The translations under genes and the position numbers were made by a program. A stretch of DNA of 45,485 nucleotides, from positions 26,357 to 71,841 of the forward strand of contig CAYXBZ010000001.1 in NCBI GenBank assembly GCA_964463605.1, read 5' to 3'. The DNA is from an uncultured Pseudomonadales bacterium (GTDB lineage Bacteria; Patescibacteriota; Microgenomatia; UBA1400; PJMF01). The notes under the pieces were generated by a model. That model was not told the DNA's origin and did no database searches. It worked only from the letters and a program-made list of their open reading frames with translations. How positions within the stretch are numbered: position 1 is the stretch's first letter; each line of letters begins with the position of its first letter. Below, in pieces: positions 9,201-41,834 of this stretch.

Positions 9201-10167
9201 CCTGTCGCCACAAGAGCTTGATCGGATGGGAATCTCTCAGTACGTAAATATAAAGAAGGAAGCTAGAATCATCAATGAAGACTCCGGGTGCGCTGGAACG
9301 AGGAGATGCGAAAATCCAAACTTTCCCGTATTGGTTCAATACACCATCACCATTGAGCCAAAAAACAACTATATCCTTGAAATTATTTTTATAGAGGATG
9401 ATGCCAAAACTCTTTACAACAAAGATGCCTACTCTTCTCTAGCCGATGTTCCTTCAACCCCCCCACATAATGAGATTTATTTAAGTAGCGATGATGACCC
9501 AATCATTCTTAACCCCGTTGATGACGATCCCAGCAACGATCGACACACAATCGTATACGAGAAAGAGTATGGATCAGACTACAACCACGCCCTTATTAGA
9601 AATGCTGCAACTACAAAATTTATCTATTCAAAAGATGGCTCGCAAGGAACAGATGAGGCCAGAAGCTCTACCTCTGTAGCTTTGGGAGAAGCTCCCCAAG
9701 AGCTACTTTGTTGGCCCAACGATGGATACATCACCTCAGTTCCATTCAGAGGAATTAAATCTCACATCACAACAGATGCTTACGACATTGCTACAGGCAG
9801 AAAAGTAGTTCCAGCCTATGCTCCAGCCGATGGGAGACTGTGTGGCGGCGGATTTGGCAACAATCCGAGCGTTGGTTATGGATATCACGTAACTCTTAGC
9901 ACCTCAATTTTAGGCGAGGATTATCTTTTTGTTTTAGGACACTTAGACGAGCCATCTTTTTTAGTCCCAATAAACGGAGATTGTGTTGAAGTTAATCGGG
10001 GAGATCGTATCGGCAACGTTGGAAACACAGGTAACTCCGACGGCCATCATATGCATCTGGAAAAAAGAAGGGAGTCTGGAAGCCTTTCATTAACCGAACT
10101 ACTAACAGGTGACACCGCGATACTAAATTACGGTCAAACAATCTATTCGTGCGCTTCTGAACAATAA
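6277..10167 (+). CDS. Giant membrane protein with C-terminal M23 (LytM-type) peptidoglycan endopeptidase domain; T4SS-associated cell-wall hydrolase candidate
   Basis: 1296-aa ORF. The first ~800 aa have no hydrophobic segment and include a Pro/Gln-rich stretch. A Gly/Ala-rich hydrophobic block follows (AAAAMAVLAALVKLAHTAITAGGALGGALVGGGVGFVIGGPIGGLIGTALGGLAGLFGG; later AGYAVAGMGAMAATTLLVMTAF). The C-terminus carries M23 motifs: HxxxD (H1163 ITTD, nt 9763) and HxH (GNTGNSDGHHMHLE, nt 10045-10056). Confidence 0.75.
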   Translation: MANLGSSPRTLKVLDRSTLIRDNPLSSIQALLEQIASHNFDNKQQRFPGQHIWSPSNQNQFVVALSEDIILDHYEAGAPVFNEVLFVSDFFSILNDIDDYLQDELKRAVRAIDANVEDANLKNAAKDELGVVLTNLEKLTSGNRARVNRWQNGIIDSAREIRLFKSIEKQQFQPIVSLAQSLAGVVQEFGGWLSKYSNVIDYESQLEGSQEDDQTKPPLTQTSTSPATAPELERVDPDQGELEQEQTQPKPDPTPPPNPSEFNSALANFSQSFSQVVLNNLLAAYTLDEDSNALAGFADLSPELQNELRRQLAPQIENIILSLSQSELEALLHGGPDSSAVRLKVFRKAHSFAIGYPPLRLLLQQAINESHASLSQNQPDKKDKLAEKVKETSHEEAQKNLGVIASDDAPGFDQGQTNNLKALLSFSSLSPEQVRQEFRLQLEQLVGSQADSTALGLAQTNFESTITSLIISDPILTPKFIDYLDYPKIRAFLGDIISSQTYQEHKNEIHALLKQYWMVLRAELNQTHPALGNLTELSPHQVRLNDEEVNDRMHRASLIRTEVVGRFDQNKADVIKAAVGEGVGSPENAEGADHTKRLKEHFLKTTDVAQRRRYLETVGLGEMVGGLDKKTDGSDTVRQEYELSINEFNRILQETQQEFDYFLFVEQELRFQQQQAVQTYIIAQAAQQAARQQFAAIALQAQYLEILGGSHFLVPREEYAYQLPGRDSLTQIPYYPQSTSDMIAMSQGLGDGGGGDNPRGAIDQQKMAMLEGLAEMGVDAALNYATGGGYQAIPKPLRDMLNKIVVKESLKKIRTILKALKIAAAAAMAVLAALVKLAHTAITAGGALGGALVGGGVGFVIGGPIGGLIGTALGGLAGLFGGKGAANRVLSTTAADSARAGARNVSAAAEGLGDAAKQQASLTGTGAEAAALESTVGANVAAQVAGYAVAGMGAMAATTLLVMTAFQSAFLIDPPLSPQELDRMGISQYVNIKKEARIINEDSGCAGTRRCENPNFPVLVQYTITIEPKNNYILEIIFIEDDAKTLYNKDAYSSLADVPSTPPHNEIYLSSDDDPIILNPVDDDPSNDRHTIVYEKEYGSDYNHALIRNAATTKFIYSKDGSQGTDEARSSTSVALGEAPQELLCWPNDGYITSVPFRGIKSHITTDAYDIATGRKVVPAYAPADGRLCGGGFGNNPSVGYGYHVTLSTSILGEDYLFVLGHLDEPSFLVPINGDCVEVNRGDRIGNVGNTGNSDGHHMHLEKRRESGSLSLTELLTGDTAILNYGQTIYSCASEQ

Positions 10168-11259: not shown

Positions 11260-12318
11260 ATGCAAGAACACCCAATCCCGCAAGATATTACCGGCTACAA
11301 GTTCCATTTGGTGGGCAGCATGACCCTCAAGCAGTTCGCTGAGGTGTTGGTGGGAGTGTTGGTGGCACTGGCTCTTTATAAATCGGGTTTGCCTGGAATT
11401 ATTCGTTGGCCAGCAATGATTTTTTCAGCCGGCTTGGGAGCCATGGCAGCTTTCGTCCCAATTGAGGAAAGACCCCTAGATCACTGGATTGTAACTTTTG
11501 TCAAAGTTTTGTTTAAACCCACTAAGTTTTTTTGGAAAAGAGAACCCGTAATCCCCGACACCTTTACCTATGAGCCCGAAGAACAAAGCAGCCAACCAAG
11601 TTATGAGGTTGACTTGTCTCCAGCTAGAAAAAACAAGATTTATCAATATCTGCAGTCGATCAACCATCCAACCAACAAAATCGATAACTACGACATGGCA
11701 GAGCAACAGCGAGTAAATCAGCTATTGTCTGGATTTGATCAAATAAATGTTGAGAGTTCTCCCACTAAAGATAGGTCAAAACCCAACCTTACCGTTAGAG
11801 TTAGAGAGATGAGAGACTATCAAATCTACCCAGCATCCCAACCAAACAACCAATCTCAAACTGAGCAATTTAAAGATAAGGCCCCTGTAACTTCGGGGGT
11901 GCCTTCTGACTCAACGAGCACATCCTTAAACCAGACTGCTAAAAAACAAGATGTTGAAGATCCTCAGGGTCAAATTAGCCAAAATGACTTGCACAAATAT
12001 AAGGAATCCAATCAACCCACCACCATTGTTAACACCCTGCCACCACCCACCAACTCACTCCCCAACCAGATCTCAGGTATTTTGATGTCAAGTCAGGGAA
12101 ATCTAATCGGAGATGCTGTGGTTGAGGTTCAAGATAAAAACAACAAAACAGTTACCGCAGTCAAAAGCAACTCTTTGGGACAGTTTGTGGTTTCCAGACA
12201 GTTGCCAAACGGAGAATACTCACTGGCTATTTCCGCCAGTGGATTTAAGTTTGAACCAATTAATACAACCCTCACGGGAGAGTTAGTTAATTCTCTGGAA
12301 ATTAAGGCTTCAGCCTAA
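11260..12318 (+). CDS. PrgI/VirB3-like T4SS membrane protein fused to a C-terminal carboxypeptidase-regulatory-like beta-sandwich domain
   Basis: The N-terminus IPQDITGYKFHLVGSMTLKQFAEVLVGVLVALALY plus a second helix (WPAMIFSAGLGAMAAFVPIEERPLDHWI) matches the PrgI-family pattern. A Ser/Thr/Gln/Pro linker follows. The C-terminus ISGILMSSQGNLIGDAVVEVQDKNNKTVTAVKSNSLGQFVVSRQLPNGEYSLAISASGFKF matches the CarboxypepD_reg pattern. A possible extended -10 (TGGTAAGAT) sits at 11231-11239. Confidence 0.65.
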   Translation: MQEHPIPQDITGYKFHLVGSMTLKQFAEVLVGVLVALALYKSGLPGIIRWPAMIFSAGLGAMAAFVPIEERPLDHWIVTFVKVLFKPTKFFWKREPVIPDTFTYEPEEQSSQPSYEVDLSPARKNKIYQYLQSINHPTNKIDNYDMAEQQRVNQLLSGFDQINVESSPTKDRSKPNLTVRVREMRDYQIYPASQPNNQSQTEQFKDKAPVTSGVPSDSTSTSLNQTAKKQDVEDPQGQISQNDLHKYKESNQPTTIVNTLPPPTNSLPNQISGILMSSQGNLIGDAVVEVQDKNNKTVTAVKSNSLGQFVVSRQLPNGEYSLAISASGFKFEPINTTLTGELVNSLEIKASA

Positions 12319-12406: not shown

Positions 12407-14110
12407 ATGCCGCCCACATCACAATATCAGTCAACCACTCAAAAATATCTAGATATTTACGATATAACCAACAATTTTGTTATATTAAAAACTGGATTTG
12501 TGAGTTTTGTGCTGAGTGTAAGTGCCATGAACTTTGGACTGCTGGCCGAAGCTGAACAAGACGCTGTAATCTATACCTATGCTTCGCTGTTGAACTCACT
12601 AAATTATCCTGTTCAGATCGTAATTCAATCACAAACCAAAGATGTTACTGACTACTTAAACTTACTCAAGCAGCAAGAAACTGAAGCTAGCTCCGATCAA
12701 AAAAGAGAAAGAATTGCTCGTTACAGACAGTTTGTTTCACAGCTTATTAAAGAGAGAAATGTTTTGGATAAAAAGTTCTACGTTGTTGGTTCCGCCACTC
12801 CCAGTGAGTTGGGTCTAATAACAGCAGATAGTGTATTACCCGGAAAAACAGAATTTGATATTACCAAGTTTGAAAAATCGGTAATACTTGAGAAAACCGA
12901 GTCTGTCCTCGATCCAAGAAGAGATCATCTTATTAGTCAATTTGCGCGCATTGGTCTTTTTGCCAGGCAGCTTAATACACAAGAAATTATTCGTATTTTT
13001 TACACCAGCTATAACCCAGAAGCCAGCGAGGGACAAGAGGTCACCGACACCCAGCAGTACACAACCCCTCTTGTGAGAGCCAGTTTGGTCAAACAAACTC
13101 AACCACTTACCACTCAACCACTTACTACCCAACCACAAAACCCCACTCCACCACCAGCTCAGGATTTGACAGAACAACAGGTTCATGAACCTGAGTTAGT
13201 TGAGCAACAACAAACTAGCCCCCAACCCTCCGAAGTAGCTTTTGAAACAAATGAAGAAAGCTTGACGAGCAACAACAATTCTCAAGCACCAAGTCAGCAA
13301 GAGTCACACGAACAACTTCAAGCAACAATTCAACAATCAAGCACCGATTCTATGACAAACCAAGCCAACCACAACTATCCAACTCCAAGCCACGCTCTGA
13401 CCAACAACCAAAGCAATCAAGCGGTAGAGCTGCAAAATAACGTCAGCTCGCCAACCAAAGCTTCTCCTGCATCACAAACATCTCAGTTAAGCAGCACACT
13501 TCCTCAAGACTCAACATCTTTGCAGCCTCAATCGCCATCGGTTCCAGAGCCCCAAGAACAGCCAAGCCCACAAGACTTAGTGAGCACTCCAGTTGAAAAT
13601 AATTTAAACAGTCAGGGTTCTGCGGGGTCTCAAATGCCACAGTCTCCAGCGCCCTCAACCACTCCCAGCGTCAATCCCTCTGCCACCCAGGAAGCCGATA
13701 CCAAACCAATGACAAGCACAGCTACATTTCAAGAAAACTTAGATGATTTTAGTCCTCCACCTGTAAGTAAGGGTCAAGGAGCCTCTTTGGGTAATAAGGT
13801 GAGTTTTAAAAAAAGCGCCTCCAGAAACTCTGATGCCAGTGGGTCAGTTGAGGAGAAACCTTCTGAGGAACTCTCCTCTACAGATAGCTCCGCCAATGAT
13901 CAAATTAACCAAGACTTGATTAAAGAAGTTCCTTCAGAACCCAAGTCCTCAGAACAAAAAACCCCAGAGTCTAAAGCATCAGAACAAAAAAAGCCAGAAA
14001 ATCAATCGTACACAGAGCCAGCCGGTCAAGACAACAAACCATTAGAAAATCAGAGTACAGATTCGAGAAGCGCACCAACCAACCTTCCACCTATCGCTGA
14101 AATCAAATAA
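12407..14110 (+). CDS. T4SS-associated protein: VirB4/TrsE N-terminal-domain-like region (no ATPase) plus ~330-aa Pro/Gln/Ser/Thr-rich disordered tail
   Basis: The first ~230 aa (YLDIYDITNNFVILKTGFVSFVLSVSAMNFGLLAEAEQDAVIYTYASLLNSLNYPVQIVIQSQTKDVTDYL) resemble the N-terminal non-ATPase domain of Gram-positive VirB4-type proteins. No Walker A or B motif is present. The remainder is low complexity with short tandem repeats. Confidence 0.5.
   Translation: MPPTSQYQSTTQKYLDIYDITNNFVILKTGFVSFVLSVSAMNFGLLAEAEQDAVIYTYASLLNSLNYPVQIVIQSQTKDVTDYLNLLKQQETEASSDQKRERIARYRQFVSQLIKERNVLDKKFYVVGSATPSELGLITADSVLPGKTEFDITKFEKSVILEKTESVLDPRRDHLISQFARIGLFARQLNTQEIIRIFYTSYNPEASEGQEVTDTQQYTTPLVRASLVKQTQPLTTQPLTTQPQNPTPPPAQDLTEQQVHEPELVEQQQTSPQPSEVAFETNEESLTSNNNSQAPSQQESHEQLQATIQQSSTDSMTNQANHNYPTPSHALTNNQSNQAVELQNNVSSPTKASPASQTSQLSSTLPQDSTSLQPQSPSVPEPQEQPSPQDLVSTPVENNLNSQGSAGSQMPQSPAPSTTPSVNPSATQEADTKPMTSTATFQENLDDFSPPPVSKGQGASLGNKVSFKKSASRNSDASGSVEEKPSEELSSTDSSANDQINQDLIKEVPSEPKSSEQKTPESKASEQKKPENQSYTEPAGQDNKPLENQSTDSRSAPTNLPPIAEIK
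13097..13141 (+). repeat. Three imperfect 15-bp in-frame tandem repeats (encode TQPLT-TQPLT-TQPQN)
   Basis: actcaaccacttacc / actcaaccacttact / acccaaccacaaaac read directly. A second short repeat (tcagaacaaaaaa, SEQK) occurs near 13951 and 13978. Confidence 0.8.
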
Positions 14111-14180: not shown

Positions 14181-16250
14181 ATGCTTTCATCGCTTAACTT
14201 ACCACTACCCTTCCTTAATAAGAAAAAAGAAGAGGTCGATCCAGACGAACAAAAACAACTTGAACTTCAGCAAATTGAGGAGTTCTCAAGAGGTTTGGTT
14301 ACCATTCAAGACATCATAGCCCCAGAAGCGATTGAGGTTGATTTCACCTACCAAAAAATTAACTCTTCGTACTCAAGAACCCTTTTTGTGGCCGGATATC
14401 CGAGATCTGTTCCAGCCAACTGGCTTTCTCCGCTAGTCAACTTTCCAACCCAAACTAACATTTCCATGTTTATTTTCCCCATGGATAGCTCGGAGATTTT
14501 AGATAACCTCAAAAGAAAAATCACTGAAATGGAGGCCGAGATTCAGTCAGACATTCGTTCTGGGAAAATCAGCAACATCAATACCGAAATAAAACTCAAT
14601 GATGCGAGAGTTATCCGAGAACAGTTGGCTGCGGGAGCTGAGCGGTTTTATCAGTTTGGACTTTACATAACCATCAAAGCAGACTCAGTTAAAGAGCTTG
14701 ATCGCATCACCAAAAGCATTCAATCAACTCTTGGAGCGCTGCTCATCGTCTCAAAAAAAGCCACCCTCCAAATGGATGAGGGCTTTAAAACCACCCTCCC
14801 TATGGGCACTGACCTTCTTCAAGTAACTAGAAACATGGACACCACCTCTTTGGCCACCACCTTTCCGTTTACCTCTTCTGAATTGACCATGGACACCGGC
14901 ATTCTTTACGGCATTAACGAACACAATGAGTCTTTGGTCATCTTTGATAGATTTAGAATGGAAAGTTACAACATGTTAATTTTGGCTAAGTCTGGTGCGG
15001 GTAAGTCATATACCGTTAAGCTTGAAATTTTAAGACAACTCATGTTTGACACGGAGATAATTGTTCTTGATCCAGAACAAGAATATGAAGACTTGTGTCA
15101 AATGGTGGGTGGCGAATACATTAATTTTACTTTTGGATCTAAAGCTAAAATCAATCCTTTTGACTTATCTCAAGTTTATGAAGAAGGGCAAAACGAGTTG
15201 GGTCAAAAGATTCTTTCGCTACATGGCTTACTAAAGGTGATGTTAGGAGAAATGTCTGCAGAGCAAGACGCTTTGCTTGACAGGGCTCTCATCGCAACTT
15301 ACAAAGCAAAGGGGATCACGCCCGATCCAGCCACTCAAAAAAACACCCCTCCAATGATGGAGGATTTGTACAAAACCATCATTGGTATGGAAAGTGCTGA
15401 GGCTGATGATATAGCCGCTCGCCTAGAAAAATACATCACTGGCTCTTTTAGAGGGATTTTTGATCAAGCATCAAACATAAATATCAACAACGAGTTTACG
15501 GTTTTTAGTGTTAAAGAAATGGAAGATGAATTAAGACCCGTCGCCATGTACGTTATTCTTGATTTTATTTGGACTAGAGTAAAAAAAGATTTTAAAAAGA
15601 GGTTGCTAATAATCGATGAGGCTTGGTACTTTATGCAGCACCCAGACAGCGCCAAGTTTATCTATTCTATGACCAAGCGTGCTCGAAAATATTATTTAGG
15701 TATCACCACCATCACTCAAGATGTGGAGGATTTCCTTCATAATGATTTTGGTAAGGCAATTGTTTCAAACGCCTCAATAAAGTTTTTAATGAAACAATCA
15801 ACCGCCTCAATTCCCGCTTTGTCAGAAGCTTTTTATCTTTCCGAAGGAGAACGGCAGCTTTTGGTGTCAGCAGACATTGGAGAGGGGGTGTTTTTTGCCG
15901 GACAAAATCACGTAGCACTAAGAGTTGTGGCAAGCGACGAAGAACATCAGGTTATCACCACCGACCCAAGAGAAATAGATGCTCGAAGAAAACAGCAACA
16001 GGCTTCTGCACGACAAACATCTCAGTCACAAACTCAAAACTCCCATCAAGAAAGTCAGCAGCGCGCGCCTACCTCAAATCAAAACAATCAAGAGACAAAA
16101 GCGTCCTTACCCAATAAGGAGTTTTTGGGACAGTTGATGAGCTCTCTAGCTTCTAAGAAGAGTAATCAAAAAGATTCTTCAGAGCCTCAACAAAATCAGT
16201 CAAAAAGGGCTGGGCACTACACTATCGACGACTACTCAGAGCCCACCTAA
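14181..16250 (+). CDS. virB4: VirB4-family T4SS ATPase
   Basis: 689-aa ORF. Walker A is LILAKSGAGKSYTVK and Walker B is RLLIIDEAWYFM. Typical VirB4 context includes ITTITQDVEDF. The C-terminal tail is Gln/Ser-rich. Confidence 0.85.
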   Translation: MLSSLNLPLPFLNKKKEEVDPDEQKQLELQQIEEFSRGLVTIQDIIAPEAIEVDFTYQKINSSYSRTLFVAGYPRSVPANWLSPLVNFPTQTNISMFIFPMDSSEILDNLKRKITEMEAEIQSDIRSGKISNINTEIKLNDARVIREQLAAGAERFYQFGLYITIKADSVKELDRITKSIQSTLGALLIVSKKATLQMDEGFKTTLPMGTDLLQVTRNMDTTSLATTFPFTSSELTMDTGILYGINEHNESLVIFDRFRMESYNMLILAKSGAGKSYTVKLEILRQLMFDTEIIVLDPEQEYEDLCQMVGGEYINFTFGSKAKINPFDLSQVYEEGQNELGQKILSLHGLLKVMLGEMSAEQDALLDRALIATYKAKGITPDPATQKNTPPMMEDLYKTIIGMESAEADDIAARLEKYITGSFRGIFDQASNININNEFTVFSVKEMEDELRPVAMYVILDFIWTRVKKDFKKRLLIIDEAWYFMQHPDSAKFIYSMTKRARKYYLGITTITQDVEDFLHNDFGKAIVSNASIKFLMKQSTASIPALSEAFYLSEGERQLLVSADIGEGVFFAGQNHVALRVVASDEEHQVITTDPREIDARRKQQQASARQTSQSQTQNSHQESQQRAPTSNQNNQETKASLPNKEFLGQLMSSLASKKSNQKDSSEPQQNQSKRAGHYTIDDYSEPT

Positions 16251-34790: not shown

Positions 34791-34817
34791 GCTGTCACAA
34801 AATTAATAAGAATTTAT

Positions 34818-35615: not shown

Positions 35616-35628
35616 TTTCTATATATAT

Positions 35629-36327
35629 ATGTCAAACTCAAGCATCCCTCAACACATCGCCATTATTATGGACGGTAATCGCCGCTGGGCTCGTCAAAAC
35701 AAGCTGCAAGTTTTTAAGGGTCACGAAAAGGTGGCTCAAGAAAATATTGAGAGACTCACCGACCATTGTATTAAACTAGGCATCCCCCATCTTACACTCT
35801 GGGCGTTTAGTACTGAAAACTGGAAAAGAGACAAACTAGAGGTTGAGGCGATACTGTCATTGATGCGCAGTATGTTTGCCAAAGGCTTTGAACCAATGAT
35901 CAAAAAAAAAGTAAAGATTGAAACAATTGGAGATTTATCAAAATTTCCCGCCGACATTCAAGAAAGCATTCGAAAACTCAAGGATGGCTCGGTTAACGAC
36001 TACAAAATTGTTGTGACTTTTGCTCTTAATTATGGAGGAAGAAATGAAATCAGTCGAGCTGTAGAGAAACTGTTTCAAAGCGGATTAAACATTGGTGAGA
36101 CCCAACTTGAGTTTCAGTTAAGTGATTATCTTGACACCTCTTTTTTGCCGGATCCCGATTTAATCATTCGCACCGGAGGAGAACAGAGACTGTCGGGTTT
36201 TATGCCTTGGCAGAGCGTTTATTCTGAACTGTATTTTACTGATGTTTTGATGCCAGATTTTAACGAAAGCGAGCTTAATAAAGCTCTTGCTGAGTATCAA
36301 AGAAGAGAAAGAAGGTTTGGAGGCTAA
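35629..36327 (+). CDS. uppS: Undecaprenyl (cis-prenyl) diphosphate synthase
   Basis: Contains HIAIIMDGNRRWA, LTLWAFSTENWKR, IRTGGEQRLSGFMPWQ and YSELYF. Confidence 0.9.
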   Translation: MSNSSIPQHIAIIMDGNRRWARQNKLQVFKGHEKVAQENIERLTDHCIKLGIPHLTLWAFSTENWKRDKLEVEAILSLMRSMFAKGFEPMIKKKVKIETIGDLSKFPADIQESIRKLKDGSVNDYKIVVTFALNYGGRNEISRAVEKLFQSGLNIGETQLEFQLSDYLDTSFLPDPDLIIRTGGEQRLSGFMPWQSVYSELYFTDVLMPDFNESELNKALAEYQRRERRFGG

Positions 36328-36331
36328 CTAG

Positions 36332-36787
36332 CTAGGGCGATGGTGTTATCCCAAGATTGCCCCAATCATCAGGATTTGAAATTCCTGTATCACTTGAAGG
36401 AATAAAAAACTGAGTAATCACATTTATTCCGGTAAACTCAGCAATAGTGTTAATGATGAGAAATGATAGTAGTGCTAACACTAACCCTGAAAAAGCAAAG
36501 GTAATAGTTTTTTTTGAACTCTCCAAAGCTTGTGAATTTCCTCCAGATAAAAGCCATTTTATTGATCCAACAACCAGCATCACAAAACCAGCCAATCCAA
36601 TAAAGGTAAAGCTAACCGATAGAACATTTGCCACCAGACACATTGTCCCTTGAATAGTGGCCACACCATTAACCACACAGGAGCTATTGATGTCAGCCCA
36701 AGGCTGGGTTTGAGCATGGGCGGTGGGTGAAAAAAACAGAAAAATTGATATTAGTGAAGTAAAAAGCAGGGTTTTTTTAGCAAGCAT
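36332..36787 (-). CDS. VirB2/TrbC-like T4SS pilin paralog P1
   Basis: 151 aa. Signal peptide ends AHA|QT. Two hydrophobic helices flank the loop IKWLLSGGNSQALESSKKTI. Two Cys lie in the N-terminal external part. Confidence 0.65.
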   Translation of the reverse strand: MLAKKTLLFTSLISIFLFFSPTAHAQTQPWADINSSCVVNGVATIQGTMCLVANVLSVSFTFIGLAGFVMLVVGSIKWLLSGGNSQALESSKKTITFAFSGLVLALLSFLIINTIAEFTGINVITQFFIPSSDTGISNPDDWGNLGITPSP

Positions 36788-36823
36788 AGTAGCTGTGTTT
36801 TTTTAATGATTGTCGCTTGCACT

Positions 36824-36832
36824 ATTGTATCA
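36824..36832 (-). promoter_or_regulatory. Extended -10 promoter (TGATACAAT on minus strand) for P1
   Basis: The plus strand reads attgtatca. It lies ~37 nt upstream of the P1 ATG and downstream of the P2 terminator. Confidence 0.4.
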
Positions 36833-36871
36833 AAACTCTTGAAAATGGTCTGTAGGCAATAAATAAGAACT

Positions 36872-36898
36872 AAAAACCCCCGCGATAAGCGGGGGTTT
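36872..36898 (-). terminator. Strong intrinsic terminator after pilin P2
   Basis: The minus strand reads CCCCCGC-TTATC-GCGGGGG followed by TTTTT. The stem is 7 bp, all G/C. It lies 27 nt after the P2 stop. Confidence 0.85.
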
Positions 36899-36924
36899 GA
36901 GTGCAATTTCTTATTTAGAATTAG

Positions 36925-37326
36925 TTAGCGATTAATTGGTCTAATGCCAGTATTAAACACTTCCTGAATTCCTCCAGAAAATCCCAATAGGCTTAAGGCA
37001 AGTTGGAGAAGGGCGTATGATGCAGCCAAAACAATTAGACCCACAATAGCAGCGGTGATCTTATTTCTTGCTTTTTCAGTTTGGCCCTTGTCACCACCAG
37101 AGGTAATCCACTCAATTCCGCCCAAAATAAGGTACATAAACACCAAAATGGCAGCGACTAACATCACTAAGTTTAAAATACTGCTTAGAAGTGTGCCAAT
37201 GCTTGTAGCATAACCTCTATCTGGAATATCAACATTTCCAAGTTGGGCTAGTGCTGGGGTTGCGGCCAAAACGAAGCTTCCCACAGAAGAGCTAATACCC
37301 AATGTAATTTTCTGAATTTTATTCAT
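36925..37326 (-). CDS. VirB2/TrbC-like T4SS pilin paralog P2 (candidate major pilin)
   Basis: 133 aa. Signal peptide ends ALA|QL. The loop is IEWITSGGDKGQTEKARNKI between two hydrophobic helices. It has its own consensus promoter, an AAGGAG Shine-Dalgarno and a terminator. Confidence 0.7.
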   Translation of the reverse strand: MNKIQKITLGISSSVGSFVLAATPALAQLGNVDIPDRGYATSIGTLLSSILNLVMLVAAILVFMYLILGGIEWITSGGDKGQTEKARNKITAAIVGLIVLAASYALLQLALSLLGFSGGIQEVFNTGIRPINR

Positions 37327-37380
37327 AATTCTCCTTTAGTTGTTAGGTTGTATTGTTTCTAGTTTATATCAAGTGAACGT

Positions 37381-37410
37381 ATTATAGCAAGTATCTGCAA
37401 AAAAAGTCAA
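37381..37410 (-). promoter_or_regulatory. Near-consensus sigma70 promoter for pilin P2
   Basis: The minus strand reads TTGACT (37410-37405), an 18-nt spacer, then TATAAT (37386-37381). AAGGAG (37336-37331) sits 4 nt before the ATG. Confidence 0.65.
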
Positions 37411-37435
37411 AATTGAACTCTCTTGAAATGATTTT

Positions 37436-37987
37436 TTAGTAGCAAGTAATAACTCCACAGGTTCCACCTATTGGGCCTGTCCAGGACCCACTTACGCATC
37501 GGTAGCAGGGAGAGTCATTGGTGTTATACAGTCTTCCAACAGACCCTTCGGGTGCGTATTTTCCATTCCAGCACTCACATGAACCCACCGCAGGAGGAGT
37601 TCCCCCTCCGCCATCACCACTGGTTCTTCCCGAGATAAACTCAACCGGATGACCTAAGAAAGTGTTGATTGCCATAAAGATCGCTACCGACGCTGATAAA
37701 ATTAAAATTCCTACTACTGACTGTGTTAGGCGATTCTTTGCTTTGTCAATTTTTCCACTATCGCCACCAGCAGAAATCCACTGAATTCCCGCATATAGCA
37801 GATTAAACAAGAGGATGACGGCGGCAACGACAAATGCCATGCGCAATAAACCGCTAATAAAATTAGCTACGACAATGCCTCCATCATCGGTGGTGTTAAT
37901 TTGATCGGCGTAGGGAATATCTTGCTCTTTGGCCTCATTGATTATGTTGAAGTTGATGTCGGCGATAAGGGAAGAAATATTTTTCAT
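37436..37987 (-). CDS. VirB2/TrbC-like pilin paralog P3 with Cys-rich C-terminal extension
   Basis: 183 aa. No classical signal peptide. The loop is IQWISAGGDSGKIDKAKNRL. After helix 2 come a Gly-rich linker (GDGGGGTPP) and a 6-Cys tail: GSCECWNGKYAPEGSVGRLYNTNDSPCYRCVSGSWTGPIGGTCGVITCY. Confidence 0.65.
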   Translation of the reverse strand: MKNISSLIADINFNIINEAKEQDIPYADQINTTDDGGIVVANFISGLLRMAFVVAAVILLFNLLYAGIQWISAGGDSGKIDKAKNRLTQSVVGILILSASVAIFMAINTFLGHPVEFISGRTSGDGGGGTPPAVGSCECWNGKYAPEGSVGRLYNTNDSPCYRCVSGSWTGPIGGTCGVITCY

Positions 37988-38052
37988 AGCTGATTGATGT
38001 TGGATTTTTTTTGTGGTGAGTTAAACAGTTGAAAATGTGCTTGTATTTGTGT

Positions 38053-38478
38053 TTATGTCGGTATGTGGGGCGGTCTTCCCTCTGGAATACCTGGATTATT
38101 TGTTTGTTGTTCTGTGGCCGAGGGGATAGTGATCTGTAACAAGTTAAAGTCATCTCCAAACAAAAGCGTGCTAACAAAGGCGATTATTGCAAACGATCCC
38201 ACTAGTAGGATTAGTCCTATTGTTGCCTGAGTAAAGCGAGTTTTAGCTTTTTCCACCCCCTTGCTGTCTCCGCCACTAGATAGCCACTCGAACGCAGCCA
38301 TGACATAGTAAGCCAGCACAACAACAGCACCCAAAGTAATAGCCACTCTCCACATGCGAATTGCATAGTGAAAAAATAACGAACCATCTCTGGCTGCATC
38401 AGGATCACTGCCCAAATTATCAATTACGGGATTGGTGAGCGAGCCTTGGGCTAGAAGTGATAAATTCATAAATGACAT
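38053..38478 (-). CDS. VirB2/TrbC-like pilin paralog P4
   Basis: 141 aa. The loop is FEWLSSGGDSKGVEKAKTRF between two hydrophobic helices. The C-terminal tail is Pro-rich. Confidence 0.65.
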   Translation of the reverse strand: MSFMNLSLLAQGSLTNPVIDNLGSDPDAARDGSLFFHYAIRMWRVAITLGAVVVLAYYVMAAFEWLSSGGDSKGVEKAKTRFTQATIGLILLVGSFAIIAFVSTLLFGDDFNLLQITIPSATEQQTNNPGIPEGRPPHIPT

Positions 38479-38509
38479 ATAAAAGAATGAGTGAGTGCTA
38501 TTAAATTTT

Positions 38510-38911
38510 TTACTGTTTAGGCACCACTTTCATTAAGGTTTCTTCTAAGTTTATAAGGTCGATACCAATGATGGTGCCCACAATTCCGATGAGGGCATAG
38601 CTCATTACCATCACAATTAATCCAAGTACTCCGTGAAACATCTTTTCTCTTGCTTTTTCAACTTTTCCAGAATCACCTCCGGCAGTAATCCAACTAAATG
38701 CTGCCAAAAATGTAAAAACAATAAAAAACAGTCCACCCATAACGGTGATAATTCCAATTAAGTTGGAGAGGAAAGTTACTAATGTAATTAGAACATTGCC
38801 GCCGCCACTTCCTAACTCTTTGGGCGTGTAAATAGTGTCGGCAGGAGGCTCAAACCCATCTCCAAACTGAGCTTGCACTTGATCAATGTTTAAATGTTTT
38901 AGAATGTTCAT
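38510..38911 (-). CDS. VirB2/TrbC-like pilin paralog P5
   Basis: 133 aa. The loop is FSWITAGGDSGKVEKAREKM between two hydrophobic helices. The N-terminal leader is ~35 aa and hydrophilic. Confidence 0.65.
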   Translation of the reverse strand: MNILKHLNIDQVQAQFGDGFEPPADTIYTPKELGSGGGNVLITLVTFLSNLIGIITVMGGLFFIVFTFLAAFSWITAGGDSGKVEKAREKMFHGVLGLIVMVMSYALIGIVGTIIGIDLINLEETLMKVVPKQ

Positions 38912-38930
38912 TGTTTAACTCAAAAATTGA

Positions 38931-39389
38931 CTAACCTCCAATAGAAGTAAGCTTTGGGTTGATGATAAAGGTGGCGTCTCCAAAGATCAACAAACCTACA
39001 ATGGCAGCAATGGTATAAGAAAAGGCAACGATTGCAAGACCTATTACGCTGTTGAGCATCTTGGTAGACACCTTCTCTCCAGCGGAAGAATCTCCTGAAG
39101 AAGTGAGATAAATCCATCCTGCAAAAATAAAATTTAGCATAGTCCAGATTCCAGCAACAATTGTGATTAGGCGAATCATGTTAGAGAGAAATAAAATTAT
39201 CCCAATGTCGTTATCTCCAACTTGGGCTTGCCACTTATCTACTCCTGGTGGTGGTTCAATCGTTCCCACTACCGACGGTGTGTCCGCCCAAACTGACTGA
39301 GGAAGAGCGAACCAAATAACTGTAGAAAATAAAGAAAAAACAATCTTTGTGAGCTGAGTTGTAAGTTGTTTGATGTTCGTGATTGTCAT
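38931..39389 (-). CDS. VirB2/TrbC-like pilin paralog P6
   Basis: 152 aa. Signal peptide ends VWA|DT. The loop WIYLTSSGDSSAGEKVSTKM is a degenerate form of the motif. A TATAAT at 39425-39420 lies upstream. Confidence 0.6.
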   Translation of the reverse strand: MTITNIKQLTTQLTKIVFSLFSTVIWFALPQSVWADTPSVVGTIEPPPGVDKWQAQVGDNDIGIILFLSNMIRLITIVAGIWTMLNFIFAGWIYLTSSGDSSAGEKVSTKMLNSVIGLAIVAFSYTIAAIVGLLIFGDATFIINPKLTSIGG

Positions 39390-39497
39390 GAAGTCTTTTT
39401 CTAAGAACGAATTTATTCTATTATATTTTGTCGAGTTTAGCCAATGTTGATGTCGGCAAGCTAATTAATGAATAGTTCGGCTAAATGTGCGACAGTT

Positions 39498-39866
39498 TTA
39501 TCCCCCAAGTGGTCCGCCGATAGGAATGCTCTCCATTTGGGTAACTAGCTTAATAATCTGCACAATCCAGTAAGCCGAAAACATCACTAGAAAGCCAATT
39601 ACAGCTCCAGTTGCTAAATTTTTAGCATCCTCTTTGCCTTTGTCGGAGTCTTTGAGATAGCTGAAGCCAGCGCCAATTACTAAAAAAAATATTACGATTC
39701 CAGCTAGTACAAACAGATTGCTGACAACTAAGTTAACAACAACCCCAAAGCTACCATAAGTATCAGCTACAGTTGGTTCATTTTCTAATTTAGTTAGTTT
39801 TAAATACTCGCTAAGATTTATCTGGGCTGAGGGGACTGATAGATGACCCAATAGATTGGTAAACAT
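39498..39866 (-). CDS. VirB2/TrbC-like pilin paralog P7 (most divergent)
   Basis: 122 aa with the same two-helix hairpin. The loop is FSYLKDSDKGKEDAKNLA. A TATAAT at 39895-39890 lies upstream. Confidence 0.5.
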   Translation of the reverse strand: MFTNLLGHLSVPSAQINLSEYLKLTKLENEPTVADTYGSFGVVVNLVVSNLFVLAGIVIFFLVIGAGFSYLKDSDKGKEDAKNLATGAVIGFLVMFSAYWIVQIIKLVTQMESIPIGGPLGG

Positions 39867-40068
39867 AAGGTTTAATAGTTAGTGAAGTCATTATAACATC
39901 AAAATAACTTCAAGCCGAGAAAGGGCTTTTGAAGATTTTATCTAAGAAAATTTTGCGAAGTCGTATAAAAACCATGTTTTTTGAAACTTCAAGGAAATAA
40001 TTAAAAAGCTTTTTATATCTCAACTGTTGGCGATTTTTATCTGGCTAATTCTACACTCCAATACTCCC

Positions 40069-40725
40069 TTATTCCAAAACATCGCTCTTCATTTTTTCAG
40101 CTTCTGTTTGAAAGTAATTAGACATATTTTTCTTGTCAAAACTTCCGTTAATAATTGGATCATCTACATGCGTATCAACTTCAAATAACCTACTAGCAAG
40201 TTGAAGTGGATCTATGTGCCAATCAAATTTGATTTTTGCTTTCATTCGCAGATCTTTAATAGCAAAGTTATATTTTTGAATAATCGAGTAAAGATCAAAA
40301 TAATCTCGACCTCTTGGCTTTTGAACAATGGTGAGCAGTTTGTTGGTGGCGATGTCAACGACACTATCAACCAACAGACCATCTTTTTGTTTTGGTTGCT
40401 CCACATGCGCAAATGGATAGTAGGTGAACTCAAGTTTGAGGATGTAGTTATTTTCAAATCTCAAAAAATATAGGTTTCGATTAAAACTAGTTTGATAATC
40501 AAATGATTCAAAATCTAGTTTTTTTTGAAGTTTTTTGAGCAAAACCAAGATGCTTTGCGGATCAAATTCTTTTTGATTGAAGAAATCTAGATCTTCTGAA
40601 TATCGATGCTGCAAGTAGTAGTGTGACAAAGCAGTTCCGCCAGAAAAGTAAAACTCTTTAGCAAGATCTGTAGTTGCAATTAGTGAAAGGGCTTTTTTTT
40701 GTTGTTTTGTTAAGATTGGCCCCAT
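40069..40725 (-). CDS. Nucleotidyltransferase AbiEii/AbiGii-family toxin-like protein
   Basis: 218 aa. Contains FYFSGGTALSHYYLQHRYSEDLDFF, the hallmark N-terminal motif of the AbiEii (DUF1814) family. Confidence 0.7.
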   Translation of the reverse strand: MGPILTKQQKKALSLIATTDLAKEFYFSGGTALSHYYLQHRYSEDLDFFNQKEFDPQSILVLLKKLQKKLDFESFDYQTSFNRNLYFLRFENNYILKLEFTYYPFAHVEQPKQKDGLLVDSVVDIATNKLLTIVQKPRGRDYFDLYSIIQKYNFAIKDLRMKAKIKFDWHIDPLQLASRLFEVDTHVDDPIINGSFDKKNMSNYFQTEAEKMKSDVLE

Positions 40726-41075: not shown

Positions 41076-41226
41076 ATTTCAAATAAGTATCCAATTCTCT
41101 CAAAAAAAACAAGATTTTTCCAGCGCAAAACACCCAATAAGCGTGGCAAGCATTCAAATTATATTAAGGCTCATCAGCGCTTATTTTATTTTTGTATTAA
41201 AGATCGTGAGTGGCGGTTCTTCTTCA

Positions 41227-41235
41227 TGGTAGAAT
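41227..41235 (+). promoter_or_regulatory. Extended -10 (TGGTAGAAT) 7 nt upstream of the sigma-factor ATG, suggesting a leaderless transcript
   Basis: Read directly: tggtagaat, then caagctg, then ATG (41243). No Shine-Dalgarno. Confidence 0.4.
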
Positions 41236-41242
41236 CAAGCTG

Positions 41243-41827
41243 ATGTCTCAAAAAAAACCAGTAATCAACTCAGCAGTGTTGGCTAATGAAAACAAGTTGG
41301 TGAAGCAATTAAAGCAAGCTGATCCTCAGGCGGTAAAAAAGTGGTTTTTACACTATCATCAATCACTACTTCAGCTAGCAAAACAAAAAATAGCTAACAC
41401 CAAAGATGCTGAAGATGTGGTTCAAGAAACAATGATAAACTGCTTGCGACAGATTCAGCTTTTTCGTCAAGATTCTAGCTTAAGAACTTGGATGATGACC
41501 ATTCTTCGTCATGAGATTGCAGATTACTATCGAAAAAAGTATGCAAAGAAAGCATTAAACACGGTACCGCTGGGTCATCACCTTCTAACTCAGCCCATTC
41601 AAGGTAGCGACCTAGTTGAAGAGCGCGTAATTCAAACTGTACAAAATACGTTAAAAAAAATGTCTAGCTATCGTAAAAAAATCTTGATGATGAAGTATGT
41701 TGACGGATTAAAGGTACGAGAAATTGCTAAAAAGTTGGGAAAAACATTCAAGTCAGTTGAAGCAGAGCTGTGGCGATCAAGAGAATCCTTTAAGAAATTT
41801 TATTTGGAGGACGAACTAAATCAATAA
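41243..41827 (+). CDS. RNA polymerase sigma-70 family factor, ECF-like
   Basis: Region 2 is DAEDVVQETMINCLRQIQLFRQDSSLRTWMMTILRHEIADYYRKK. Region 4 is LMMKYVDGLKVREIAKKLGKTFKSVEAELWRSRESF. ATG 41243 is preferred over the upstream alternative start at 41210. Confidence 0.8.
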   Translation: MSQKKPVINSAVLANENKLVKQLKQADPQAVKKWFLHYHQSLLQLAKQKIANTKDAEDVVQETMINCLRQIQLFRQDSSLRTWMMTILRHEIADYYRKKYAKKALNTVPLGHHLLTQPIQGSDLVEERVIQTVQNTLKKMSSYRKKILMMKYVDGLKVREIAKKLGKTFKSVEAELWRSRESFKKFYLEDELNQ

Positions 41828-41834
41828 TAAATTA

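What the first reader, a model, noticed from the sequence alone, without database searches (positions are those of the whole stretch)
36332..39866. Seven tandem, highly diverged VirB2/TrbC-like pilin paralogs, 20 kb away from the T4SS core
Seven consecutive minus-strand ORFs (122-183 aa) share one architecture:
- a variable N-terminal part
- hydrophobic helix 1
- a conserved loop, W/Y-[IL]-x-[SA]-G-G-D-x3-4-[EK]-K-A-[KR]
- hydrophobic helix 2
- a variable C-terminal tail

The loops read WLLSGGNSQALESSKK, WITSGGDKGQTEKARN, WISAGGDSGKIDKAKN, WLSSGGDSKGVEKAKT, WITAGGDSGKVEKARE, YLTSSGDSSAGEKVST and YLKDSDKGKEDAKN. This is the T4SS pilin hairpin.

Divergence is concentrated in the segments predicted to be exposed. 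Three paralogs have classical signal peptides (AHA|Q, ALA|Q, VWA|D) and four have long hydrophilic leaders. A single conjugative system needs one pilin, so seven suggests another arrangement. Options include a heteropolymeric filament with minor or tip subunits, alternative filaments for different partners, or a use of this fold that has not been characterised.
Basis: partly seen in the sequence, partly recalled or inferred. Interest (0 to 1): 0.8.

Follow-up and report, generated by a model that had tools for sequence, protein, structure and literature searches.

The report
Seven-gene T4SS pilin-like array, Patescibacteria
The seven small membrane-hairpin genes are real, but they are one more example of the "VirB2-like pilin arrays" already published for ultrasmall Patescibacteria; new here is that the seven are an old, order-conserved set in which one gene has its own strong promoter and terminator, as a main building block would.

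Summary
Seven minus-strand ORFs lie at exactly the stated coordinates, and the best Pfam hit for all seven is PF18895 (T4SS_pilin). They are significant paralogs with a two-helix hairpin core. The T4SS genes (VirB6-like, PrgI, TrsD-like, VirB4) lie 20 kb away, next to dnaA.

The phenomenon is already published. Quiñonero-Coronel 2025 reports 441 arrays of 2-11 pilin genes, mostly in Microgenomatia and Saccharimonadia. Wang 2023 shows the array is essential in S. epibionticum.

My analysis adds four points:
- **Conserved order.** The array keeps the same order, W1 to W7, in 16 related species-level genomes. Orthologs are 32-76% identical and paralogs 19-31%, so the copies are old and not redundant.
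- **One separately expressed gene.** Only W6 (36925-37326) has a near-consensus promoter and a strong terminator. The terminator is present in 16/16 W6 orthologs and 0/108 other array genes. W6 is therefore the likely major subunit.
- **Fusions.** Neighbouring members are naturally fused in other genomes, and polyproteins with up to 17 hairpins exist.
- **Closest sequence relative.** Classical VirB2 similarity is not demonstrable. The closest named family is a Mycoplasma ICE "pilin-like" protein.

Best reading: a heteromeric tube with one major and six accessory subunits on a monoderm T4SS. No filament has been shown. Verdict: new member of a known kind.

The parts
39498..39866 (-). W1, the first gene of the array (122 aa). 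It has no classical signal peptide. Its short N-terminal motif is MFTNLLGHLSVPSAQ.
   Evidence: ORF. PF18895 at E = 2e-3. 16 orthologs at the same array position.
38931..39389 (-). W2 (152 aa), with a signal peptide ending VWA|D.
   Evidence: It is found fused to W1 or to W3 in other genomes.
38510..38911 (-). W3 (133 aa), with a short leader ending QAQ|FGDGF.
   Evidence: PF18895 at 27.6 bits, above the cut-off. In the natural W2-W3 fusion P0002 the leader is replaced by the W2 tail.
38053..38478 (-). W4 (141 aa). Most orthologs carry a full signal peptide; this lineage keeps only MSFMNLSLLAQ.
   Evidence: It is fused to the W5 position in L022, L024 and L026.
37436..37987 (-). W5 (183 aa). 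A hairpin followed by a lineage-specific 70-aa C-terminal tail with six Cys residues.
36925..37326 (-). W6 (133 aa), the candidate major subunit. It has a classical signal peptide (ALA|Q), the best family match and the most conserved sequence.
   Evidence: PF18895 at E = 8.7e-10. NF045849 at E = 8e-7. Loop identity 0.86 among 26 orthologs. Nine nucleotide changes and no amino-acid change in strain contig L006.
36332..36787 (-). W7 (151 aa). Signal peptide AHA|Q, then a conserved Cys...VATIQG...Cys N-terminal loop.
37381..37410 (-). Near-consensus sigma-70-type promoter of W6: TTGACT-N18-TATAAT with a TG extension. The AAGGAG ribosome-binding site lies at 37331-37336.
   Evidence: At least 10 of 12 matches upstream of 13/16 W6 orthologs, against 12/108 other array genes.
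36870..36898 (-). Intrinsic terminator directly after W6: a 10-bp GC-rich stem followed by a T-run.
   Evidence: The same feature is present after 16/16 W6 orthologs and 0/108 other array genes.
39890..39898 (-). Extended -10 box (TGTTATAAT), 23 nt upstream of the W1 ATG. It is the likely promoter of the W1-W5 operon.
   Evidence: A TATAAT box 7-25 nt before the W1 ATG recurs in most related loci. The operon itself is inferred from the short intergenic gaps.
41210..41827 (+). ECF-type sigma factor gene. It is the conserved divergent neighbour of W1 in related genomes. A 67-aa ORF with a C-terminal TM segment (41835-42038) follows it and may be an anti-sigma factor; that role is inferred.
   Evidence: Pfam. 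Divergent adjacency in 17 of 24 related loci. Downstream ORF. No regulatory link has been shown.
1270..3057 (+). Polytopic membrane protein, VirB6-like, related to the Mycoplasma ICE Mbov_0396 family.
   Evidence: NF045889 at E = 2.5e-5, below its cut-off. Multiple TM segments. Its homolog lies 4-5 kb downstream of the array in 7 related loci.
6277..10167 (+). 1296-aa protein with a C-terminal M23 peptidase domain, the candidate cell-wall hydrolase of the T4SS.
11260..12318 (+). PrgI (VirB3-like) protein with a CarboxypepD_reg domain.
   Evidence: PF12666 at 28.6 bits, above its cut-off of 27.
12407..14110 (+). TrsD-like protein, related to the N-terminal part of VirB4.
   Evidence: NF041427 at E = 2.7e-8. 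A homolog lies next to VirB4 in L027.
14181..16250 (+). VirB4-family ATPase, immediately upstream of dnaA (16341-17951).
   Evidence: PF19044 at E = 1.4e-26, plus PF03135.

Best explanation
The seven genes encode membrane-hairpin proteins of the Patescibacterial T4SS_pilin family (PF18895). The genome is Microgenomatia-like.

They are old, non-interchangeable paralogs that work together as one heteromeric assembly attached to the genome's monoderm-type T4SS. That machine consists of VirB4, a TrsD-like protein, PrgI, a VirB6-like protein and an M23 hydrolase, encoded 20 kb away beside oriC.

Each protein inserts with its N- and C-terminal tails outside the cell and its basic loop in the cytoplasm.

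W6 is transcribed on its own from a near-consensus promoter and closed by a strong terminator. It supplies the bulk subunit. W1-W5 (one operon) and W7 supply low-copy accessory subunits that could prime, cap, anchor or decorate the structure through their variable outer tails.

The product is most likely a wall-spanning tube or short pilus. By analogy with the essential array of S. epibionticum, it serves the host-dependent lifestyle rather than plasmid conjugation.

**Shown here:** gene reality, family membership, paralogy, fold, conserved order, the distinct transcription signals of W6, and natural fusions.

**Inferred:** topology, relative abundance, co-assembly, the link to the T4SS, and any extracellular filament.
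For: - **Family.** PF18895 is the best hit for all seven proteins and for 112 of 114 relatives.
- **Fold.** AlphaFold2 gives a hairpin with pLDDT above 90.
- **Conserved order.** W1-W2-W3-W4-(W5)-W6-W7 recurs in 16 species-level loci. Position-matched best hits are 32-76% identical and usually beat the second-best paralog by wide bit-score margins. Paralogs are 19-31% identical.
- **W6 stands apart.** A hairpin plus T-run with dG <= -12 follows 16/16 W6 orthologs and 0/108 other array genes. A promoter with at least 10 of 12 matches precedes 13/16 against 12/108. W6 is flanked by 70-170 nt spacers where other gaps are mostly under 50 nt.
- **W6 is the most constrained.** It has the highest ortholog identity and only synonymous changes between strains.
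- **Topology.** Loops carry 2-4 Lys/Arg, tails are acidic, and Cys residues sit in or at the edge of the tails.
- **Co-assembly.** Natural fusions join neighbouring members: W1-W2, W2-W3 and W4-W5. Polyproteins with 6-17 hairpins exist, one of them inside an array.
- **T4SS link.** In 7 related loci the array lies 4-5 kb from homologs of window ORFs 86-1072 and 1270-3057 (VirB6-like). In L027 it lies 4 kb from VirB4. W6, orf1270 and orf12407 match the three consecutive Mycoplasma ICE families Mbov_0395, 0396 and 0397.
- **Literature.** The homologous array sits inside the T4SS cluster of S. epibionticum and is essential there (PMC10633639).
Against: - No expression, proteomic or imaging data exist for this organism.
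- No VirB2-like filament has been seen in any Patescibacterium. The filaments isolated from M. amalyticus are unrelated Ig-fold Pam pilins.
- Homology to pilus-forming VirB2/TrbC is not statistically demonstrable.
- The nearest named relative is from wall-less Mycoplasma, where I know of no reported conjugative pilus.
- Polyproteins with 12-34 TM helices fit a membrane-embedded ring at least as well as an extruded filament.
- Promoter and terminator motifs predict transcription units, not protein abundance.
- In this genome the array is physically separate from the T4SS genes.
- At array position 5, six loci score W5 and W6 almost equally.
Confidence: 0.5

Rival explanations
1. Membrane-resident channel parts, not a pilus. 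The hairpins stay in the cytoplasmic membrane and line or gate the VirB6/VirB4 translocon as a hetero-oligomeric ring. This would resemble what the small essential protein of Mycoplasma ICEs presumably does.
For: - The most specific named match is NF045849, the 'Mbov_0395 family pilin-like conjugal transfer protein' of wall-less Mycoplasma. W6 hits it at E = 8e-7 and 77 of 114 relatives hit it.
- By locus-tag order, its neighbours Mbov_0396 and Mbov_0397 correspond to ICEA CDS16 and CDS17. CDS15 is needed for ICEA transfer (PMC6030558). The equation Mbov_0395 = CDS15 is my inference.
- Polyproteins with 6-17 hairpins look like covalent rings.
- No VirB2-type filament has been imaged in Patescibacteria.
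Against: - Fast-evolving, Cys-bearing, acidic outer tails and a 70-aa Cys-rich appendage on W5 suggest exposure beyond the membrane.
- A dedicated strong promoter and terminator for one member suggests it is needed in bulk.
- Seven distinct conserved types are many for a channel lining.
Confidence: 0.27
2. A repertoire for variation. The paralogs would be alternative, interchangeable pilins used one at a time to match different hosts or evade defences. This is what is proposed for Bartonella and Anaplasma VirB2 arrays, and Quiñonero-Coronel et al. suggest it for Patescibacteria.
For: - Low identity between copies and variable exposed tails.
- The published suggestion itself.
- Copy number varies from 7 to 10, with extra W2 or W6 copies in some genomes.
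Against: - Each position has its own ortholog, kept in the same order across 16 genomes.
- There are no long DNA repeats between copies that could drive cassette exchange; the best is 70 nt at 67-70% identity.
- The genes are co-oriented in tight operon spacing.
- Neighbouring copies are fused into single proteins.
- Strain-level changes are few and mostly synonymous.
Confidence: 0.1
3. Small membrane proteins unrelated to type IV secretion, for example envelope-stress or holin-like proteins controlled by the neighbouring ECF sigma factor. On this reading the Pfam name is misleading.
For: - The array is 20 kb from the T4SS genes here.
- An ECF sigma gene is its conserved divergent neighbour in 17 of 24 loci.
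- Hairpin proteins attract weak hits to many hydrophobic families.
- No significant link to classical VirB2 was found.
Against: - The array is adjacent to VirB4 or VirB6-like genes in other genomes and lies inside the S. epibionticum T4SS cluster.
- NCBIfam gives one specific hit, to an ICE conjugal-transfer family, with no competing family.
- The W1 and W6 promoters look sigma-70-like, not ECF-like.
Confidence: 0.05

Closest known systems
VirB2-like pilin arrays of Patescibacteria (Quiñonero-Coronel et al. 2025, PMC12102498; the essential array in the Ca. Southlakia epibionticum ML1 T4SS cluster SEML1_0006-0019, Wang et al. 2023, PMC10633639; the TM7x 'Sec-secreted array')
   Same: - The same Pfam family (PF18895).
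- Tandem co-oriented genes.
- About 25% identity within an array.
- Host class Microgenomatia/Saccharimonadia.
- T4SS genes beside dnaA.
- An array that is often not next to virB4.
   Different: Nothing essential: this is an instance of that class.

I did not find the following in those papers:
- the order-conserved seven-member orthology;
- the separate promoter and terminator of one member;
- the fusions and polyproteins;
- the link to the Mycoplasma ICE family.
Classical T4SS pilins: VirB2 (Agrobacterium T-pilin), TrbC (RP4), TraA (F); Pfam PF04956 and relatives
   Same: - Small size.
- A cleavable leader ending AxA|Q. All 10 VirB2/TrbC proteins fetched have it, as do W6 and W7.
- Two hydrophobic helices around a charged loop.
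- Termini predicted to lie outside.
   Different: - No significant sequence or profile similarity.
- The host is a monoderm.
- Seven conserved types instead of one pilin plus VirB5.
- Four members lack a classical signal peptide.
- No filament, lipid binding or cyclisation has been shown.
Mbov_0395 family 'pilin-like conjugal transfer protein' of Mycoplasma ICEs (NCBIfam NF045849)
   Same: - Full-length profile match: W6 residues 39-112 against profile positions 5-78 of 80, E = 8e-7. 77 of 114 relatives match.
- The neighbouring ICE families Mbov_0396 (polytopic membrane protein) and Mbov_0397 (VirB4) also have relatives in this window.
- Both sit in monoderm-type T4SSs.
   Different: - Scores are below the equivalog cut-off (28.6 against 40 bits).
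- The family sits in a mobile conjugative element, not a chromosomal, relaxase-less system.
Major plus minor pilin sets of type IV pili and type II secretion (PilA with FimU/PilVWXE; GspG with GspHIJK)
   Same: By analogy only: one abundantly expressed subunit, often monocistronic with its own terminator, plus a conserved operon of several divergent low-copy paralogs with the same core fold. This statement rests on my own knowledge of these systems.
   Different: An unrelated fold and machinery. No prepilin peptidase motif (G|F) is present.
VirB2 paralog arrays of Bartonella and Anaplasma phagocytophilum
   Same: Tandem divergent VirB2-type genes in a host-associated bacterium (cited in PMC12102498).
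   Different: Those arrays are thought to serve variation. Here the copies are position-conserved orthologs with no recombination substrate.
CedA1 pilin of the Aeropyrum pernix conjugation (Ced) pilus, PDB 8dfu
   Same: Top Foldseek hit for the W6 model, and also a helical hairpin (TM-score 0.69 normalised to the target).
   Different: E = 2.1, which is not significant. A helical hairpin is a low-information fold.

Membership tests
Pfam PF18895 T4SS_pilin | HMM score at or above the gathering cut-off (26.6 bits) | tested here: met
   W6 scores 39.0 bits and W3 27.6 bits. The other five score 18.5-22.1 bits (E = 1.6e-4 to 2.1e-3), below the cut-off, but PF18895 is still their best hit. All seven are mutually homologous, and 112 of 114 relatives hit the family.
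Pfam PF18895 T4SS_pilin | A core of about 70 aa made of two hydrophobic helices joined by a short polar loop | tested here: met
   Hydropathy. AlphaFold2 helices at 40-75 and 80-113 with pLDDT above 90.
Patescibacterial VirB2-like pilin array (as defined in PMC12102498) | Two or more pilin-profile genes in tandem or separated by one gene | tested here: met
   Seven consecutive co-oriented genes with gaps of 19-137 nt. Under the paper's E < 0.001 rule, four qualify outright (W3, W5, W6, W7) and three are borderline (E = 0.0011-0.0021).
Patescibacterial VirB2-like pilin array (as defined in PMC12102498) | The genome also carries a VirB4 of the Patescibacteria clade and MPF_FATA-type partners | tested here: inconclusive
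   VirB4, PrgI, a TrsD-like protein and a VirB6-like protein are present. Clade membership of VirB4 was not tested by phylogeny.
Patescibacterial VirB2-like pilin array (as defined in PMC12102498) | High divergence within the array (mean about 25% identity) | tested here: met
   19-31% identity.
Classical TrbC/VirB2 pilins (PF04956) | Significant sequence or profile similarity to TrbC/VirB2 | tested here: not met
   - None of the seven hits PF04956 at E <= 1.
- 9 of 114 relatives hit it, best E = 7e-4, similar to the noise families.
- hhalign against 10 fetched VirB2/TrbC gives at most 9.7% probability (P = 0.003), against P >= 0.09 for reversed decoys.
- No PDB pilin is found by profile search.
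Classical TrbC/VirB2 pilins (PF04956) | Long leader cleaved by signal peptidase I at AxA|Q | tested here: inconclusive
   W6 and W7 have AxA|Q and W2 has VWA|D. W1, W3, W4 and W5 have only a short [LI]A[QD] motif. Cleavage itself was not testable.
Classical TrbC/VirB2 pilins (PF04956) | Structural match to solved conjugative pilins | tested here: inconclusive
   The top Foldseek hit is the Ced pilus pilin 8dfu, but at E = 2.1 and probability 0.69.
Classical TrbC/VirB2 pilins (PF04956) | Gene located within the T4SS operon next to virB3/virB4 | tested here: not met
   The array is 20 kb from VirB4 in this window. Related genomes place it 4-5 kb from VirB6-like or VirB4 genes.
Classical TrbC/VirB2 pilins (PF04956) | Polymerises with phospholipid into an extracellular tubular pilus | not testable with these tools
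   This needs purification with cryo-EM, or cryo-ET. No such filament has been reported for Patescibacteria.
NCBIfam NF045849 Mbov_0395 family pilin-like conjugal transfer protein | HMM score at or above the equivalog cut-off (40 bits) | tested here: not met
   W6 scores 28.6 bits (E = 8e-7) and W5 17.1 bits. 77 of 114 relatives match at E <= 0.01, best 7.5e-8. The proteins are related to this family but are not members of the equivalog.

The most novel reading that the evidence does not exclude
Patescibacteria of the Microgenomatia type build a fixed, seven-component hairpin assembly on a monoderm T4SS, with one bulk subunit (W6) and six conserved accessory subunits. This would be a VirB2-type counterpart of the major/minor pilin logic of type IV pili.

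Members without a signal peptide would use a previously undescribed mini-leader (M-x(n)-LIAQ|).

The family would have been inherited together with the monoderm (Mycoplasma-ICE-like) T4SS rather than borrowed from diderm systems.
Probability: 0.3. Interest if true: 0.7.

Novelty: new member of a known kind. Interest (0 to 1): 0.4.

Why it matters
Patescibacteria are a very large, mostly uncultured part of bacterial diversity, and they live on other microbes. Their T4SS, including its pilin array, is essential in the one species tested, yet its function and structure are unknown.

This locus does not reveal a new kind of system. The comparative results do narrow the question:
- The copies are a conserved set rather than a variable repertoire.
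- One specific member (the W6 type) is the candidate to look for in filament preparations, or to tag and deplete.
- The fusions and polyproteins imply side-by-side packing of different members.
- The sequence link to Mycoplasma ICE proteins bears on where a 'pilin' in a monoderm T4SS came from.

Tried and rejected
- **PDB sequence search.** A profile of the seven proteins against all PDB sequences found no pilin (best E = 0.24, FliL).
- **Foldseek.** The W6 model against the PDB gave nothing significant.
- **hhalign against classical VirB2.** I compared the family and each ortholog group with a profile of 10 VirB2/TrbC proteins fetched from plasmids, using reversed decoys as control. No significant match resulted. 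The faint full-hairpin alignment for the W1 group (P = 0.003) is not evidence.
- **tblastn of the W6 core against 72,556 plasmids.** Only two chance-level hits.
- **Locus search with the seven-protein alignment.** I used W6 alone instead.
- **ECF-sigma control of the array.** Considered because of the conserved divergent synteny. The W1 and W6 promoters look sigma-70-like, so I left it as an open note.
- **Cassette-type antigenic variation.** Rejected for lack of DNA repeats and because of the conserved orthology.
- **Pam pili.** The newly described Pam pili of CPR bacteria were checked as a possible identity. They are unrelated Ig-fold, donor-strand-exchange pilins.
- **Second AlphaFold2 job.** I did not run it on a natural two-hairpin fusion. 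The alignment placed the W2-type singles under the wrong half, and the tool returns no inter-domain confidence, so the result could not have been interpreted.
- **Large ORF after W7.** The large ORF that follows W7 in L014 and L019 is not homologous to window ORF 3121-6174.

Full report
**1. Observation.**

The seven minus-strand ORFs are present at exactly the reported coordinates and lengths. I name them in transcription order:

| Name | Coordinates | Length |
|---|---|---|
| W1 | 39498-39866 | 122 aa |
| W2 | 38931-39389 | 152 aa |
| W3 | 38510-38911 | 133 aa |
| W4 | 38053-38478 | 141 aa |
| W5 | 37436-37987 | 183 aa |
| W6 | 36925-37326 | 133 aa |
| W7 | 36332-36787 | 151 aa |

- They are true paralogs. 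Overall identity is 19-31%. Pairwise BLASTP E-values are 1e-5 to 1e-17 for most pairs; only W1-W7 and W2-W7 give no direct hit.
- Each has two long hydrophobic segments around a Lys/Arg-containing loop.
- AlphaFold2, run with a 114-sequence alignment, models W6 as a helical hairpin. Helices span 40-75 and 80-113 with pLDDT above 90, and the N-terminal 33 residues are disordered.
- A profile of the seven finds no further copy elsewhere in the window.

**2. Family.**

- PF18895 (T4SS_pilin) is the best Pfam hit for all seven. W6 (39.0 bits) and W3 (27.6 bits) pass the gathering score of 26.6; the other five score 18.5-22.1 bits.
- 112 of 114 database relatives hit the same family.
- The family is very large. 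A profile search of 1.84 billion representative proteins finds 83,248 clusters at E <= 1e-3 and 24,716 at E <= 1e-10.

**3. Context and organism.**

The window is chromosomal and spans the replication origin region. In order:
- a T4SS block: VirB6-like 1270-3057, M23 hydrolase 6277-10167, PrgI 11260-12318, TrsD-like 12407-14110 and VirB4 14181-16250;
- dnaA, dnaN, rnpA and yidC;
- a mevalonate-pathway operon ending in uppS (35629-36327);
- the array, convergent with uppS;
- an AbiEii toxin gene with a small upstream ORF;
- an ECF sigma gene;
- recF.

The closest database relatives are labelled Microgenomates, Woesebacteria, Pacebacteria or Patescibacteria. The identical array occurs on 16 metagenome contigs.

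**4. Already known.**

- Quiñonero-Coronel et al. 2025 (PMC12102498) searched 3,035 Patescibacterial genomes with PF18895 and PF04956. They report 441 arrays of 2-11 pilin genes in 383 assemblies, mainly in Microgenomatia and Saccharimonadia. Mean identity within arrays is 25%. The pilin lies near virB4 in only 1,135 of 1,948 assemblies, and the T4SS genes commonly sit next to dnaA.
- Wang et al. 2023 (PMC10633639) showed by Tn-seq that the predicted pilins in the S. epibionticum T4SS cluster are essential.
- A 2025 review calls them six structurally conserved, sequence-divergent VirB2-like pilins and notes that a pilus is only a possibility.

The finding is therefore an instance of a published class.

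**5. The set is ancient and ordered.**

Using W6 as a probe I fetched 24 loci from species-representative genomes.
- Most carry 7-10 tandem family members.
- In 16 of them the best window match of each gene follows the order W1, W2, W3, W4, (W5), W6, W7. Position-matched identity is 32-76%, and the margin over the second-best paralog is usually large.
- Position 5 is ambiguous between W5 and W6 in six loci.
- Extra copies, where present, are duplicates of W2 or W6.
- Between paralogs there is no DNA repeat longer than 70 nt, and that one is 67-70% identical.
- Strain-level contigs are 96-100% identical. In L006, W6 has nine nucleotide changes and no amino-acid change, while W4 has 17 nucleotide and four amino-acid changes.

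This pattern fits non-redundant subunits. It does not fit a variable repertoire.

**6. One member is expressed separately.**

- W6 is preceded by TTGACT-N18-TATAAT with a TG extension (37410-37381) and by an AAGGAG ribosome-binding site.
- It is followed by a 10-bp GC-rich hairpin with a T-run (36898-36870).
- The W6 ortholog is flanked by 70-170 nt spacers in nearly all loci, while other gaps are mostly under 50 nt.

| Signal | W6 orthologs | Other array genes |
|---|---|---|
| Hairpin plus T-run, dG <= -12 kcal/mol, within 90 nt of the stop | 16/16 | 0/108 |
| Promoter match of at least 10 of 12 | 13/16 | 12/108 |

The three W6 exceptions in the promoter row probably reflect over-called ORF starts.

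- W1 has a conserved extended -10 box close to its ATG (39898-39890), and W1-W5 are tightly packed.

I infer three transcription units: W1-W5, W6 alone, and W7. I infer that W6 is the abundant subunit. Neither inference has been measured.

**7. Topology and leaders.**

- Loops carry 2-4 Lys/Arg and the tails are net acidic. Cys residues lie only in the outer regions: six in the W5 C-tail, and two in W7, one in its N-tail and one at the N-terminal edge of helix 1. This indicates N-out/C-out insertion with a cytoplasmic loop.
- Across orthologs the hairpin core is 0.40-0.86 identical to the window protein and the tails 0.03-0.46. Only the W2 C-tail (0.46) reaches the core range.
- W6 and W7 orthologs have classical signal peptides ending AxA|Q. 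All ten classical VirB2/TrbC proteins I fetched end their leaders the same way.
- Members without a signal peptide begin with a short motif such as MTLIYSLIAQ|FGDGF or MTTHTLIAQ|ADIFG. It sits exactly where signal-peptide-bearing orthologs have their cleavage site.
- Whether this mini-leader is cleaved is unknown.

**8. Fusions.**

- Neighbouring members are fused into single proteins in other genomes:
  - W1-W2: P0006
  - W2-W3: P0001 and P0002
  - W4 plus the position-5 member: L022, L024 and L026
- In P0002 the W3 mini-leader is replaced by the W2 C-tail.
- The representative search also found single ORFs with 6, 8, 11 and 17 tandem hairpins.
- One of these, P0121, was confirmed on its contig inside an array of single pilin genes.

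These fusions argue that different hairpins pack side by side in one assembly, with both termini on the same side of the membrane.

**9. Relation to VirB2 and to monoderm systems.**

Direct tests for classical VirB2/TrbC similarity were negative or inconclusive.

NCBIfam, in contrast, gives one specific relative:
- NF045849, the 'Mbov_0395 family pilin-like conjugal transfer protein' of Mycoplasma ICEs, matches W6 at E = 8e-7 over the full profile. 77 of 114 relatives match, and no other family competes. Scores are below the equivalog cut-off.
- The window's orf1270 matches the Mbov_0396 ICE membrane protein family.
- The TrsD-like ORF matches the N-terminal part of the Mbov_0397 VirB4 family.

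I infer that the hairpin family came with the monoderm-type T4SS. The 2025 paper left open that it was co-opted from diderm systems.

In 7 related loci the array lies 4-5 kb from homologs of window ORFs 86-1072 and 1270-3057. In a Saccharimonadia locus it lies 4 kb from VirB4. The 20-kb separation seen here therefore looks like a local rearrangement around the origin.

**10. Mechanism and rivals.**

| Reading | Confidence |
|---|---|
| Heteromeric T4SS-associated tube or short pilus; W6 as bulk subunit, six accessory subunits | 0.5 |
| Membrane-resident channel or ring | 0.27 |
| Interchangeable repertoire for host range | 0.1 |
| Unrelated to the T4SS | 0.05 |

- The channel or ring reading is favoured by the Mycoplasma relative, by the polyproteins and by the absence of any imaged filament.
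- The repertoire reading is disfavoured by sections 5 and 8.
- Filaments actually isolated from a CPR bacterium proved to be unrelated Pam pilins. The existence of a VirB2-type pilus in this phylum therefore remains open.

**11. Verdict.**

- The kind of system is already described, so this is a new member of a known kind.
- The comparative findings in sections 5-9 were not found in the literature searched. They give concrete, testable predictions.

Noticed in passing
window 40069-40940 (minus strand): An AbiEii toxin gene (40069-40725) and a small upstream ORF (40710-40940) sit between the ECF sigma gene and W1. In 17 related loci the sigma gene is the direct divergent neighbour of W1, so this pair looks like a lineage-specific insertion. 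The small ORF has no family hit.
   Followed up: partly
window 41210-42038 (plus strand): An ECF sigma gene, followed by a 67-aa ORF with a C-terminal TM segment that may be an anti-sigma factor, is conserved divergent to the pilin array across Microgenomatia-like genomes. The array promoters look sigma-70-like, so any regulatory link is unproven.
   Followed up: partly
window 37439-37651 (W5 residues 113-183): W5 carries a 70-aa Gly/Cys-rich C-terminal tail with six Cys residues. The tail is absent from W5 orthologs in other species and diverges even between strains (L006). It may be a disulfide-bonded surface knob.
   Followed up: partly
N-termini of W1, W3, W4, W5 (window) and many relatives, e.g. 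P0010, P0014: A conserved mini-leader, M-x(1-10)-[LIV][LI]-A-[QS], occupies the position where orthologs have a signal-peptidase site (AxA|Q). It is too short and too weakly hydrophobic to be a Sec signal peptide. Whether and how it is processed is unexplained.
   Followed up: partly
L041 1777-3435 (P0121); also P0122, P0126, P0138, P0193, P0206: Single ORFs encode 6-17 tandem pilin-like hairpins, which means 12-34 TM helices. P0121 lies inside an array of single pilin genes. In the longest proteins read (P0138, P0193) the linkers carry paired Cys residues; those of P0121 have none. I did not find these polyproteins described in the papers read.
   Followed up: partly
L014 9316-12900 and L019 9357-12734: In genomes where the array sits next to the T4SS block, a 1125-1194 aa ORF directly follows W7. 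The L014 copy has a GH5 cellulase-like domain (E = 1.5e-6). It has no homolog in the window.
   Followed up: partly
window 29812-36327: A mevalonate-pathway and isoprenoid operon (HMG-CoA reductase, HMG-CoA synthase, thiolase, two NUDIX proteins, isopentenyl-phosphate-kinase-like protein, UppS) abuts the array. The same genes flank the array in many related loci, in varying order.
   Followed up: no
L007, L008, L010, L012, L014-L017, L023, L025, L029 (record titles): Several contigs with clearly Patescibacteria-like gene content are titled 'uncultured Pseudomonadales' or 'Gammaproteobacteria', and one is titled 'Vitreimonas sp.'. These look like mislabelled MAG records.
   Followed up: no
window 86-6174: Three large ORFs at the left edge of the T4SS block have no Pfam match: 86-1072 (-), 1270-3057 (+) and 3121-6174 (-). 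Homologs of the first two travel with the pilin array in other genomes, so they are probably T4SS components.
   Followed up: partly
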